Assembly (NCBI RefSeq): GCF_003334355.1 | Contig: NZ_QOWP01000042.1 | From: Escherichia coli | Lineage (GTDB): Bacteria > Pseudomonadota > Gammaproteobacteria > Enterobacterales > Enterobacteriaceae | DNA length: 27,357 bases | Reading direction: 5' to 3' (one strand) | Made by a program: the position numbers | Part shown: piece by piece, positions 20,322 to 23,300 of the stretch | Layout of the letters: the number at the start of each line of letters is the position of its first letter | Numbering within the stretch: position 1 is the stretch's first letter

Positions 20322-23300
20322 TGAGCCCGACAGAATTAAATGAGATTGCAGGAAAACTCGGTTAACGGAGTGATCGAGTTAACATTGTTAAGTTAAATAT
20401 TGGTTTCAACTCCGATTTACATGGTTGCCGTGTTGTTAAATTGTACAAAGATGTTATAGAAACAAAATGTAACATCTCTATGGACACGCACACGGATAAC
20501 AACTATGAACAAATCAGGGAAATACCTCGTCTGGACAGTGCTCTCTGTAATGGGAGCATTTGCTCTGGGATACATTGCTTTAAATCGTGGGGAACAGATC
20601 AACGCGCTGTGGATTGTGGTGGCGTCGGTCTGTATCTATCTGATCGCTTACCGTTTTTATGGGTTGTATATCGCCAAAAATGTGCTGGCGGTTGACCCGA
20701 CGCGTATGACGCCAGCGGTGCGCCATAACGACGGGCTGGACTATGTGCCGACGGACAAGAAAGTGCTGTTCGGTCACCATTTTGCGGCCATTGCCGGAGC
20801 AGGTCCGTTGGTTGGGCCGGTACTGGCGGCGCAAATGGGTTACCTGCCGGGGATGATCTGGCTGCTCGCCGGGGTGGTTCTCGCCGGTGCGGTGCAGGAT
20901 TTTATGGTGCTGTTTGTTTCTACGCGCCGTGACGGTCGTTCGCTGGGTGAGCTGGTCAAAGAAGAGATGGGGCCAACCGCCGGGGTGATAGCGCTGGTGG
21001 CCTGCTTTATGATCATGGTCATTATCCTTGCAGTACTGGCGATGATCGTGGTGAAAGCCCTGACTCATAGCCCGTGGGGAACGTATACCGTTGCGTTCAC
21101 CATTCCGCTGGCGATTTTTATGGGAATCTACCTGCGCTATCTGCGTCCGGGGCGTATTGGTGAAGTGTCGGTCATCGGTCTGGTATTCCTGATTTTCGCC
21201 ATTATCTCTGGCGGCTGGGTGGCAGAAAGCCCGACCTGGGCACCGTACTTTGACTTTACCGGCGTGCAGCTGACCTGGATGCTGGTGGGCTACGGTTTTG
21301 TGGCGGCGGTGCTGCCGGTGTGGTTACTGCTGGCCCCGCGTGACTACCTCTCTACCTTCCTGAAAATCGGGACTATCGTCGGTCTGGCGGTAGGCATTTT
21401 GATTATGCGTCCGACGCTGACCATGCCTGCGCTGACCAAATTTGTCGATGGCACTGGCCCGGTATGGACCGGTAACCTGTTCCCGTTCCTGTTTATCACC
21501 ATCGCCTGTGGCGCGGTGTCTGGCTTCCATGCGCTGATCTCTTCCGGCACCACGCCGAAGATGCTGGCGAACGAAGGGCAGGCTTGTTTTATCGGCTACG
21601 GTGGAATGTTAATGGAATCCTTCGTGGCGATTATGGCGCTGGTTTCCGCCTGTATCATCGATCCGGGCGTTTACTTTGCCATGAACAGCCCAATGGCGGT
21701 GCTGGCTCCGGCAGGGACGGCGGATGTGGTCGCTTCTGCCGCGCAGGTGGTGAGTAGCTGGGGCTTTAGCATTACACCAGATACGCTCAACCAGATTGCC
21801 AGCGAAGTGGGTGAACAGTCGATCATTTCCCGTGCGGGCGGTGCGCCGACGTTGGCGGTGGGGATGGCTTACATCCTGCACGGTGCGCTGGGTGGTATGA
21901 TGGATGTGGCGTTCTGGTATCACTTCGCCATTCTGTTTGAAGCTCTGTTTATTCTGACGGCGGTAGATGCGGGTACGCGTGCTGCGCGCTTTATGTTGCA
22001 GGATCTGCTGGGCGTGGTGTCTCCTGGCCTGAAGCGGACCGATTCACTGCCTGCTAACCTGCTGGCAACGGCGCTGTGCGTACTGGCGTGGGGCTACTTC
22101 CTCCATCAGGGCGTGGTCGATCCGCTGGGCGGTATTAACACTCTGTGGCCGCTGTTTGGTATTGCCAACCAGATGCTGGCAGGGATGGCGCTGATGCTCT
22201 GTGCCGTGGTGTTGTTCAAGATGAAACGTCAACGTTACGCCTGGGTGGCGCTGGTACCAACGGCCTGGCTGCTGATTTGTACCCTGACCGCTGGCTGGCA
22301 GAAAGCGTTTAGCCCGGATGCGAAAGTCGGCTTCCTGGCCATTGCTAACAAGTTCCAGGCAATGATCGACAGCGGCAATATTCCGTCGCAGTATACTGAG
22401 TCACAGCTGGCGCAACTGGTGTTCAACAACCGTCTGGATGCCGGGTTAACCATCTTCTTTATGGTGGTCGTGGTGGTTCTGGCACTGTTCTCGATTAAGA
22501 CGGCACTTGCGGCATTGAAAGATCCGAAGCCAACGGCGAAAGAAACGCCGTATGAGCCGATGCCGGAAAATGTCGAGGAGATCGTAGCGCAGGCGAAAGG
22601 CGCGCACTAAAGTCAGAGTGAGGGGGGATGTTGGCGAATGTTGGCATAGTGCCGAGGGTTCCCCCTCACCCTAACCCTCTCCCCGATGGGGCGAGGGGAC
22701 TGACCGAGTGCGTTGATAGCATTTGTAGGCCGGATAAAGCGTTCACGCCGCATCCGGCACTCTTTCAGCAACATGGTTAGCGGAGGCCAAGATGTTTGAT
22801 TCACTGGCAAAAGCCGGAAAATATTTAGGTCAGGCGGCGAAGCTGATGATTGGTATGCCTGATTACGACAACTATGTCGAACATATGCGGGTTAATCATC
22901 CCGATCAAACGCCGATGACCTACGAAGAGTTTTTCCGTGAGCGGCAGGACGCGCGCTACGGTGGAAAAGGCGGCGCGCGCTGCTGCTAAATTTGCATGTC
23001 AGGCTTTAAACGATTCCACTTTTTCGAACGCTGCACGTAACGCATCTGGTGTCAGCGTGACCGGCAGGTAATGAATGGATTCCACCGGACGTAAGGTGTG
23101 GGCAATGACTTTGTCGATCTCCGCCTGATTATTGATATCCACGTCCAGCTCCGCCAGCGTAGTCGGCAGATGAAAACGCTGATACGCTCCAGTTAATTGC
23201 GCGAGCACATCATCCTGACCCAGCAAAGCGCTTTGCACCAGAATTCCGTAGGCGACTTTGGTGCCGTGAAGAAACTTCTCGGTTTGCGGCAGGACAGTCA

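What the first reader, a model, noticed from the sequence alone, without database searches (positions are those of the whole stretch)
20325..20504. cstA leader: candidate CRP half-sites, repeated GTTAA(C) motifs and GGA-containing sequences near the start codon
The AT-rich entH–cstA spacer has a CRP-like site (agtgatcgagttaaca, 20369..20384), several copies of gttaa(c) (20361, 20378, 20387, 20391, 20433), and GGA motifs (atGGAcac, acGGAtaac) within about 25 nt of the cstA ATG. The SD is weak. This fits CRP activation and CsrA-type translational control known for cstA, but exact sites are not verified here.
Basis: partly seen in the sequence, partly recalled or inferred. Interest (0 to 1): 0.35.

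Follow-up and report, generated by a model that had tools for sequence, protein, structure and literature searches.

The report
Known cstA promoter and leader controls

Summary
The 180-nt spacer (20325-20504) lies between entH and cstA in E. coli.

- **CRP:** AGTGATCGAGTTAACA (20369-84) is the 16-mer a published CRP ChIP-seq assigned to the cstA peak. It is the best CRP-matrix hit in the 27-kb window. In 80 Enterobacteriaceae its half-sites are conserved and its spacer varies. It sits 92.5 bp upstream of the TSS-seq start (G20469).
- **CsrA:** Both GGA motifs lie in the 36-39-nt unstructured leader, and ACGGA is the Shine-Dalgarno. CsrA repression by ribosome exclusion is published.
- **GTTAA copies:** These are not one element. 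In order they fall in two candidate Fis sites, the CRP right half-site, two ArcA-type direct repeats (one in the published ArcA box 20390-20410) and the -35 hexamer.
- **OmpR:** The most conserved block (20452-76) matches the OmpR tandem consensus 14/17 and lies under a published OmpR ChIP-exo peak.

Verdict: already known, low interest. The only untested point is whether the OmpR operator represses cstA.

The parts
20352..20375 (.). Two overlapping matches to the Fis motif GNNNRNNNNNYNNNC (20352-66 and 20361-75). They contain the first GTTAAC copy. They are probably the Fis1/Fis2 candidates of Gasperotti 2020.
   Evidence: These are the only two matches in 20300-20500. They lie within -200..-120 of the ATG and next to the CRP site, as that paper describes. 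The motif carries no statistical weight (534 matches vs 501 expected). The segment is not conserved outside Escherichia.
20369..20384 (.). cAMP-CRP binding site AGTGATCGAGTTAACA, centred at 20376.5. That is -92.5 from TSS G20469 and -90.5 from 20467. Its right half contains the second GTTAAC copy.
   Evidence: Best CRP-matrix score in the window, 11.4 bits. Identical 16-mer assigned to the cstA ChIP-seq peak in ETEC. Half-sites 80-99% conserved and the central 4 nt free in 80 genomes. The centre-to-promoter distance is held to +/-1 bp in 70/71.
20385..20394 (+). ArcA-type direct-repeat element TTGTTAAGTT (third GTTAA copy), specific to the E. coli lineage.
   Evidence: 10.0 bits with a DR matrix rebuilt from Park 2013 Table S4. 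Only 7% of orthologues reach 6 bits here. The ArcA ChIP-seq peak position 628999 (U00096.2) converts to window 20387.
20390..20410 (+). Published ArcA-P box AAGTTAAATATTGGTTTCAAC: DR1 20390-99 (fourth GTTAA copy) and DR2 20401-10, 11 bp centre to centre.
   Evidence: Park 2013 Table S4 gives this sequence at U00096.2 629002-629022. It scores 13.0 bits here. DR1 is conserved as TGTAAAT/GTTAAAT (median 7.6 bits). cstA rises 21.5-fold in an arcA mutant.
20422..20442 (+). Second ArcA-like box TGGTTGCCGTgTTGTTAAATT overlapping the -35 hexamer. It contains the fifth GTTAA copy.
   Evidence: 13.9 bits, the best 11-bp box in the spacer. Only 3 boxes in the 27-kb window reach 12 bits. The strong DR 20433-42 is >=8 bits in 95% of orthologues. 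The box lies at -44..-24 from TSS 20466, which is the position printed in Park Table S6. Binding here has not been shown.
20433..20438 (+). -35 hexamer TTGTTA of the sigma-70 cstA promoter.
   Evidence: It sits 16 bp upstream of TATAGA and 18 bp upstream of TAGAAA. GTTGTTAAA is about 95% conserved. The assignment is inferred from the mapped TSS.
20452..20462 (+). Extended -10 region TGtTATAGAAA, read as TATAGA (20455-60) or TAGAAA (20457-62). It is non-canonical because it lacks a T at the last position.
   Evidence: It is at the right distance from the TSS cluster 20466-69. The consensus promoter scan finds nothing here, which fits an activator-dependent promoter. Conserved.
20456..20475 (-). 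OmpR-type tandem site ATGTTACATT|TTGTTTCTAT, 10 bp centre to centre, spanning -13..+7. It is the core of the most conserved block of the spacer (20452-76).
   Evidence: 20457-73(-) GTTACATTTTGTTTCTA matches the OmpR repeat GTTACATTTTGTTACAT at 14/17. It is the only such match in the window (0.03 expected). The exact 13-mer is present at the same place in 43/80 orthologous loci. It lies inside OmpR ChIP-exo peak P5, 629059-629118, which is window 20447-20506. The block is 90-99% conserved.
20466..20469 (+). Transcription start cluster of cstA.
   Evidence: TSS-seq places it at 629081 (U00096.2), which is G20469, giving a 36-nt UTR (Kim 2012). The modelled mRNA of Leistra 2018 starts at 20466. 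The OmrA/B reporter uses -38, which is 20467.
20480..20484 (+). AUGGA, the upstream GGA motif in the 5' UTR and a candidate CsrA site.
   Evidence: Sequence. AUGGA is a listed primary CsrA motif. A GGA at this position is present in only 18/80 orthologues.
20492..20496 (+). ACGGA, the Shine-Dalgarno and the CsrA site that overlaps it.
   Evidence: It is the only SD-like sequence, 8 nt before the ATG. GGA is present in 78/80 orthologues. The literature states that one CsrA site overlaps the SD and that toeprints show ribosome exclusion.
20505..22610 (+). cstA coding sequence (pyruvate/proton symporter, 701 aa).
   Evidence: NCBIfam NF011590 equivalog, 1583 bits against a cut-off of 1188.
20516..20535 (+). 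Early-coding GGA motifs AGGGA (20516-20) and CUGGA (20531-35), candidate third and fourth CsrA sites. They lie inside the predicted OmrA/B pairing region 20512-35.
   Evidence: AGGGA is present in 79/80 orthologues, and Gly codon 5 is GGG in 75/80. CTGGA is listed as a secondary CsrA site taken from the cstA study. The OmrA 5' end forms a -16.8 kcal/mol duplex with 20512-35. cstA is reported as an OmrA/B target.

Best explanation
The spacer is the promoter and 5' leader of cstA. It is a compact, multi-input control region whose parts have each been described before.

Transcription:
- A weak sigma-70 promoter (-35 TTGTTA, extended -10 TGtTATAGAAA) starts transcription at 20466-69.
- The promoter depends on cAMP-CRP bound at 20369-84, centred at -92.5. 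This is a class-I-type upstream position. CRP there is inferred to recruit RNA polymerase through the alpha C-terminal domain.
- ArcA-P binds TGTTAA-type direct repeats between CRP and the -35 (20390-20410, possibly also 20422-42) and represses anaerobically. The inferred mechanism is occupation of the DNA that alpha-CTD and the -35 region need.
- Fis may compete with CRP at 20352-75.
- OmpR occupies a tandem site across -13..+7.

Translation:
- The 36-39-nt leader is unstructured.
- CsrA binds GGA motifs at the SD (ACGGA) and at neighbouring sites (AUGGA upstream, AGGGA and CUGGA in codons 4-10) and blocks 30S binding.
- OmrA/B pair with the same early-coding stretch.

Shown in the literature: CRP occupancy and crp dependence, ArcA ChIP signal and derepression, OmpR ChIP-exo occupancy, CsrA binding and toeprints, and the OmrA/B reporter effect.

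Inferred here: the exact nucleotides for the OmpR site and the second ArcA box, and the steric mechanisms.
For: - Identity of the locus.
- TSS.
- CRP: top matrix hit. The same 16-mer in CRP ChIP-seq, and CRP sites reported to cluster at about -92.5. A crp deletion abolishes expression. Half-sites conserved with a free spacer, and distance fixed to +/-1 bp.
- ArcA: published box sequence, ChIP peak and 21.5-fold derepression. Five DR-like elements >=9.5 bits against 0.36 in dinucleotide shuffles. Conservation of DR1 and the -35 DR.
- OmpR: consensus and ChIP-exo peak. A 14/17 match unique in the window, conserved. cstA is up in an S. Typhi ompR mutant.
- CsrA: reviews of Dubey 2003. GGA enrichment and conservation. 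Unstructured leader.
- OmrA/B.
Against: - Nucleotide-level agreement with the original footprints therefore rests on secondary sources.
- Gasperotti 2020 puts the CRP site 'about 80 nt' upstream of the TSS, not 90-92.
- The ArcA ChIP-seq peak at cstA was seen in only one replicate, at 2.6-fold.
- Park Table S6 places the ArcA site at -44..-24. That does not fit the Table S4 sequence with any of the three TSS positions (it would be -79..-59).
- An ompR knockout did not change cstA expression under the single condition tested.
- In most genera the -10 reads TCTAGA, which lacks the key A at -11. The -10 assignment is therefore not secure.
Confidence: 0.9

Rival explanations
1. The five GTTAA(C) copies form one array bound by a single, still unidentified regulator that reads all of them together.
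For: GTTAA is over-represented: 5 copies against about 0.4 expected.
Against: - The spacings are irregular (17, 9, 5 and 43 bp).
- The copies have very different conservation. 20361 and 20387 are lineage-specific. 20378, 20392 and 20435 are conserved.
- Each copy falls inside an element with its own explanation: Fis candidates, CRP half-site, ArcA direct repeats, -35.
- ArcA needs an 11-bp register.
Confidence: 0.04
2. The functional CRP site is not 20369-84 but the upstream CRP-like sequence AAATGAGATTGCAGGAAAACTC (20338-59). That position would fit 'about 80 nt upstream' of a start near 20434.
For: Gasperotti 2020 quotes about 80 nt and shows -200..-120. Park Table S6 implies a start near 20434 if it is read against the Table S4 box.
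Against: - The upstream sequence scores 0.8 bits against 11.4 for 20369-84.
- It is not conserved.
- ChIP-seq motif calling picked AGTGATCGAGTTAACA.
- Three independent sources put the TSS at 20466-69.
- The two Fis-motif matches flank 20369-84, as Gasperotti describes.
Confidence: 0.03
3. The conserved block 20452-76 is only the core promoter and initial transcribed sequence, with no repressor function. The OmpR ChIP-exo signal would be non-functional binding.
For: cstA expression did not change in the ompR knockout. The block overlaps the -10 and the TSS, which are expected to be conserved. TTGTTA-like sequences resemble both -35 hexamers and response-regulator half-sites.
Against: - Twenty-two consecutive positions at 90-99% identity from -15 to +8 across genera is far more than a -10 hexamer needs. 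The rest of the leader is 10-50% identical.
- The classical -10 position A-11 is the one base in the block that varies.
- The block matches the OmpR repeat 14/17 with the right 10-bp register.
- cstA is up in an S. Typhi ompR mutant.
Confidence: 0.35
4. The motifs are chance features of an AT-rich spacer and have no function.
For: The spacer is 37% G+C. Degenerate motifs are common here: a <=2-mismatch CRP match is not rare, and the Fis motif occurs at its chance rate.
Against: There is position-specific conservation in 80 genomes from more than 20 genera. Published in vivo occupancy and genetics also argue against it.
Confidence: 0.01

Closest known systems
Class I-type CRP-dependent promoters with an upstream site near -92.5 (the same helical face as -61.5, -72.5 and -82.5)
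   Same: The 16-bp motif has two mismatches to TGTGAN6TCACA. It is centred 92.5 bp from the TSS-seq start. The core promoter is weak. Expression depends fully on crp. Haycocks 2015 report about -92.5 as one of the two commonest CRP positions.
   Different: The right half-site is TAACA rather than TCACA, in nearly all genera. An ArcA box lies between CRP and the -35, so a second protein can occupy the DNA that alpha-CTD would use. Whether CRP alone is enough from this distance was not tested.
CsrA ribosome-exclusion leaders (glgC, pgaA, hfq)
   Same: There are several GGA motifs, one on the SD. Neighbouring sites lie 12-24 nt away, within reach of a CsrA dimer. Repression is by blocking 30S binding.
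   Different: The GGA motifs are not presented in hairpin loops, and affinity is reported to be lower. Two of the four motifs lie inside the coding region. Only the SD site and the codon-4/5 site are conserved.
ArcA-P operators made of TGTTAA direct repeats at 11-bp spacing (Park et al. 2013)
   Same: The published two-repeat box is at 20390-20410. The spacer carries 5 elements >=9.5 bits. Repression is anaerobic.
   Different: Most extra repeats are out of the 11-bp register. The ChIP signal is weak. The box lies upstream of the -35 rather than over the core promoter, unless the second box 20422-42 is also used.
OmpR tandem sites (GTTACATTTTGTTACAT; ompF and ompC F/C boxes)
   Same: 14/17 identity with 10-bp periodicity, and in vivo ChIP-exo occupancy.
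   Different: The site overlaps -13..+7, a repressor position, rather than the -40 to -100 activator positions of the ompF/ompC activating sites. No regulatory effect has yet been shown in E. coli.

Membership tests
CRP binding site | Match to the palindromic TGTGA-N6-TCACA motif | tested here: met
   14/16 match. It scores 11.4 bits with a matrix built from 106 other ChIP-seq sites. That is the best score in the 27-kb window and the 32nd percentile of real sites.
CRP binding site | Half-sites conserved while the central spacer is free to vary | tested here: met
   AGTGATC and TTAACA are 80-99% conserved. The central 4 nt vary across 26 sequence variants.
CRP binding site | Centre on an activating helical face relative to the TSS (-41.5, -61.5, -72.5, -82.5, -92.5) | tested here: met
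   The centre 20376.5 is -92.5 from G20469. The distance is fixed to +/-1 bp in 70/71 orthologues.
CRP binding site | In vivo or in vitro occupancy by cAMP-CRP, and crp-dependent expression | not testable with these tools
   Literature only: the ChIP-seq peak with this 16-mer, Genomic SELEX, and a crp deletion that abolishes PcstA-lux.
CsrA-repressed leader | Two or more GGA motifs, one overlapping the SD, spaced within reach of a dimer | tested here: met
   GGA starts at 20482, 20494 (SD), 20518 and 20533. There are 4 against 0.88 expected. Spacings are 12, 24 and 15 nt.
CsrA-repressed leader | [quoted passage not shown] | tested here: not met
   The MFE fold has z = -0.93 and no hairpin that presents the GGAs. 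The literature says the same for cstA. This is a feature of high-affinity sites and is not required for membership.
CsrA-repressed leader | Direct CsrA binding and a block of 30S toeprints | not testable with these tools
   Dubey 2003, as summarised. The primary paper is not held.
ArcA-P operator | Two or more TGTTA-type direct repeats, 11 bp centre to centre | tested here: met
   20390-20410 scores 13.0 bits and 20422-42 scores 13.9 bits. Only 3 boxes >=12 bits occur in the window.
ArcA-P operator | ArcA occupancy and arcA-dependent expression | not testable with these tools
   Park 2013: a peak in one replicate (2.6-fold) and 21.5-fold derepression.
OmpR operator | Tandem GTTACA-type repeats at 10-bp spacing | tested here: met
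   14/17 match to GTTACATTTTGTTACAT. It is the only match in the window, with 0.03 expected. The 13-mer is exact in 43/80 orthologous loci.
OmpR operator | OmpR occupancy and ompR-dependent expression | tested here: inconclusive
   Assessed from the literature only. There is a ChIP-exo peak over 20447-20506, but the E. coli knockout shows no expression change. cstA is up in an S. Typhi ompR mutant, which could act through OmrA/B.
Fis site | Match to GNNNRNNNNNYNNNC with an AT-rich centre and no -4A/+4T | tested here: inconclusive
   There are two matches (20352-66, 20361-75). Both have a GC-rich centre and one has -4A/+4T. The motif occurs at its chance rate. The segment is not conserved.

The most novel reading that the evidence does not exclude
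The most conserved element of the whole region is neither the CRP site nor the CsrA sites. It is the OmpR-type tandem repeat across -13..+7.

If it is a working operator, OmpR-P would shut off cstA directly and also through its sRNAs OmrA/B, which pair with codons 3-10. That would be a coherent feed-forward repression of pyruvate/peptide uptake by envelope or osmotic signals, kept across Enterobacteriaceae.

The ChIP-exo study recorded binding but saw no effect. It assayed glucose-grown cells, where the CRP-dependent promoter is off anyway.
Probability: 0.45. Interest if true: 0.3.

Novelty: already known. Interest (0 to 1): 0.15.

Why it matters
It matters little as a discovery. The same is true of the inputs hidden in the GTTAA repeats: ArcA (2013), OmpR (2017) and Fis (2020). 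The OmrA/B input overlapping the early-coding GGAs is also already reported (2026 preprint).

The modest value added here is a single nucleotide-level map. It places all the inputs on one 210-nt stretch and shows which are ancient and which are lineage-specific.

- Ancient: the CRP half-sites and their spacing, ArcA DR1, the -35, the OmpR block, the SD GGA and the codon-5 GGG.
- Lineage-specific: the Fis candidates, AUGGA, CUGGA and two ArcA-like repeats.

The map also points to one untested but testable link, direct OmpR repression.

Tried and rejected
1. **Leaderless start-stop ORF, AUG-UAA at 20467-72.** Rejected. TSS-seq starts at G20469. The ATG becomes ACG, CTG or TTG in several genera while GTAAC is kept.
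2. **RNA hairpin GAUGUUA/UAACAUC (20450-56 / 20470-76).** Rejected. Its 5' arm lies upstream of the TSS. The 3' arm is invariant, so there is no compensatory change.
3. **ArcA binding to the 20456-75 tandem.** The repeats are 10 bp apart, and ArcA did not tolerate a 12-bp spacing at putP. OmpR explains the tandem better.
4. **PdhR half-site ATTGGT (20399-404).** Only GGT is conserved, and there is no second half.
5. **DeoR, IHF, GntR, TyrR, CpxR and Lrp consensus comparisons done by eye.** None was convincing, and a deoR deletion had no effect.
6. **Consensus sigma-70 and terminator scan.** It found nothing in 20200-20650.
7. **Rfam.** Only noise hits with E > 0.5.
8. **Fis motif statistics.** Uninformative.
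9. **Primary papers.** Dubey 2003 and Dubey 2005 could not be fetched, and no attempt was made to fetch Schultz & Matin 1991. The original footprint coordinates were therefore not compared base by base.
10. **OmrA duplex over -38..+72.** It gave an implausible long-range pairing. Restricting the window gave two candidate sites, 20512-35 and 20556-70. Which one is used was not resolved.
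Full report
**What is there.** The window carries the enterobactin cluster followed by cstA. entH is 19911-20324 and cstA is 20505-22610, both on the + strand. Both exceed the NCBIfam equivalog cut-offs. The stretch 20200-20700 is 100% identical to many E. coli chromosomes annotated 'entH | cstA' (context). The finding covers the whole 180-nt spacer, which is 37% G+C.

**Observation check.**
- AGTGATCGAGTTAACA lies at exactly 20369-84.
- The two GGA motifs are at 20482-84 and 20494-96. The second is the only SD-like sequence, 8 nt before the ATG.
- GTTAA is over-represented (5 vs about 0.4, P about 2e-4), although the motif was chosen after the fact.
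- GGA is not enriched in the spacer as a whole. It is enriched in the transcribed part plus the first ten codons (4 vs 0.88, P 0.002).

**Transcription start.** Three independent sources put it at 20466-69.
- TSS-seq gives 629081 in U00096.2, with cstA starting at 629117. That is G20469 and a 36-nt UTR (Kim 2012).
- The mRNA modelled by Leistra 2018 begins at 20466.
- The OmrA/B reporter uses -38, which is 20467.

This fixes the core promoter as -35 TTGTTA (20433-38) and an extended -10, TGtTATAGAAA (20452-62). The promoter is non-canonical, and the consensus scan finds nothing there. That fits an activator-dependent promoter.

**CRP.**
- A simple mismatch count is not informative.
- I built a matrix from the 106 other CRP sites in the ETEC ChIP-seq table of Haycocks 2015. 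With it the site scores 11.4 bits, the best in the 27-kb window. The upstream CRP-like sequence at 20341-56 scores 0.8.
- The same paper assigns this exact 16-mer to its cstA peak. It also reports that CRP sites cluster at about -40.5 and -92.5.
- The centre, 20376.5, is -92.5 from G20469.
- In 80 cstA loci from more than 20 enterobacterial genera, AGTGATC and TTAACA are 80-99% conserved and the central four bases vary freely. The distance from the site centre to the promoter anchor is held within +/-1 bp in 70 of 71.
- A crp deletion abolishes PcstA-lux (Gasperotti 2020), and Genomic SELEX also lists cstA.

The CRP reading is therefore right.

**The GTTAA repeats.** They are not one element.
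- ArcA is published as a direct repressor of cstA. Expression rises 21.5-fold in an arcA mutant. The ArcA box AAGTTAAATATTGGTTTCAAC at U00096.2 629002-22 is window 20390-20410 (Park 2013).
- GTTAA is the core of the ArcA direct repeat. A 10-bp matrix rebuilt from 235 repeats in their Table S4 finds five elements >=9.5 bits in the spacer, against 0.36 in dinucleotide shuffles.

Copy by copy:

| GTTAA copy | Where it falls | Conservation |
|---|---|---|
| 20361 | Inside the only two matches to the Fis motif used by Gasperotti (20352-66, 20361-75) | Not conserved; the motif is statistically uninformative |
| 20378 | CRP right half-site | Conserved |
| 20387 | 10-bit ArcA-like repeat; the ArcA ChIP peak position converts to 20387 | Escherichia lineage only |
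| 20392 | DR1 of the published ArcA box | Conserved as TGTAAAT/GTTAAAT |
| 20435 | -35 hexamer; also the strong repeat of a second 11-bp ArcA-like box, 20422-42 (13.9 bits) | Conserved |

That second box lies at -44..-24 from TSS 20466. This is the position printed in Park's Table S6, whereas the Table S4 sequence lies at -79..-59. I could not resolve this discrepancy.

**The most conserved block.** Positions 20452-76 are 90-99% identical across the 80 genomes, while the rest of the leader is 10-50% identical.
- On the minus strand it reads GTTACATTTTGTTTCTA. This matches the OmpR repeat GTTACATTTTGTTACAT at 14 of 17 positions, with the correct 10-bp register.
- It is the only such match in the window (0.03 expected). 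The exact 13-mer is present at the same place in 43/80 orthologous loci.
- Seo 2017 list an OmpR ChIP-exo peak 'cstA' at 629059-629118, which is window 20447-20506. It has S/N 4.9 and no expression change in the knockout under NaCl stress.
- An S. Typhi ompR mutant has raised cstA, but that could act through OmrA/B.

I first considered a leaderless AUG-UAA start-stop, an RNA hairpin and an ArcA site for this block. I rejected each (see Tried and rejected).

**CsrA.**
- The leader is unstructured (z -0.93). This matches published remarks that the cstA GGA motifs are not in stem-loops and bind with lower affinity.
- Reviews of Dubey 2003 state that there are up to four sites, that one lies on the SD, and that toeprints show ribosome exclusion. 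CTGGA is cited as a secondary site from that study.
- The four GGAs in the transcript are AUGGA (20480), ACGGA (20492, the SD), AGGGA (20516) and CUGGA (20531).
- Conservation separates them. The SD GGA is present in 78/80 and the codon 4-6 GGA in 79/80, with Gly codon 5 held as GGG in 75/80. AUGGA-type motifs occur in only 18/80 and CUGGA in 20/80.
- The early-coding stretch is also the best predicted pairing partner of the OmrA 5' end (20512-35, -16.8 kcal/mol). cstA is reported as an OmrA/B target. I confirmed the OmrA sequence in the galR-aas spacer.

**Mechanism and verdict.**
- CRP at -92.5 activates a weak sigma-70 promoter. This is class I-type activation through alpha-CTD, which is an inference.
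- ArcA-P (anaerobiosis) and possibly Fis (fast growth) interfere upstream. OmpR sits on the -10/+1 region.
- CsrA, and OmrA/B, block initiation on a short open leader.
- All inputs are already in the literature. No Rfam family matches.
- The one open point is whether the deeply conserved OmpR site represses cstA.

Noticed in passing
window 20452-20476: This block is 90-99% identical across 80 Enterobacteriaceae, far more than the surrounding leader. The minus strand matches the OmpR tandem consensus 14/17, and the block lies under a published OmpR ChIP-exo peak. No regulatory effect has yet been shown.
   Followed up: yes
window 20422-20442: This is a second ArcA-like box (13.9 bits) overlapping the -35. 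Its position, -44..-24 from TSS 20466, equals the one printed for cstA in Park 2013 Table S6. The sequence in their Table S4 (20390-20410) lies at -79..-59. The discrepancy is unresolved.
   Followed up: partly
window 20514-20535 (cstA codons 4-10): There is nucleotide-level conservation beyond what the protein needs. TCAGGGAAATACCT is near-invariant, and the rare Gly codon GGG is kept in 75/80. This fits an AGGGA CsrA site and/or the predicted OmrA/B pairing site (-16.8 kcal/mol). A second candidate OmrA site, CUCUGGG at 20563-69, is poorly conserved.
   Followed up: partly
window about 22620 (10 nt after the cstA stop at 22610); ybdD 22792-22989: Kim 2012 TSS-seq lists a separate start for ybdD at U00096.2 631232, with a 173-nt 5' UTR. 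ybdD therefore may not depend only on read-through from cstA. The YbdD product hits the NCBIfam 'KCU-star family selenoprotein' model below its cut-off (70 vs 85 bits).
   Followed up: no
window 20325-20504: No intrinsic terminator is predicted between entH and cstA. Read-through from the iron-regulated entCEBAH operon into cstA is not excluded by sequence.
   Followed up: no
window 20428: The window differs from K-12 MG1655 by one base in the promoter: GGTTGCCGTG here and GGTTGCTGTG in the Kim 2012 K-12 sequence. The base lies in the weak repeat of the second ArcA-like box. In strain BLR(DE3), whose promoter is identical to the window, cstA is annotated as a frameshifted pseudogene. The window ORF is intact.
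   Followed up: no
window 20379-20391: TTAACAtTGTTAA is a perfect 13-bp palindrome joining the CRP right half-site to the next ArcA-like repeat. It is specific to Escherichia; other genera read TTAACAaTGTGATGTAAAT.
   Followed up: partly
L053, L059, L060 (Atlantibacter hermannii, A. subterranea and a record titled Citrobacter freundii), upstream of the ATG at 1501: These loci carry an insertion of about 65 nt in the leader, so the promoter anchor lies 105-106 nt from the ATG instead of 36-39 nt. The insertion contains extra GGA motifs.
   Followed up: no
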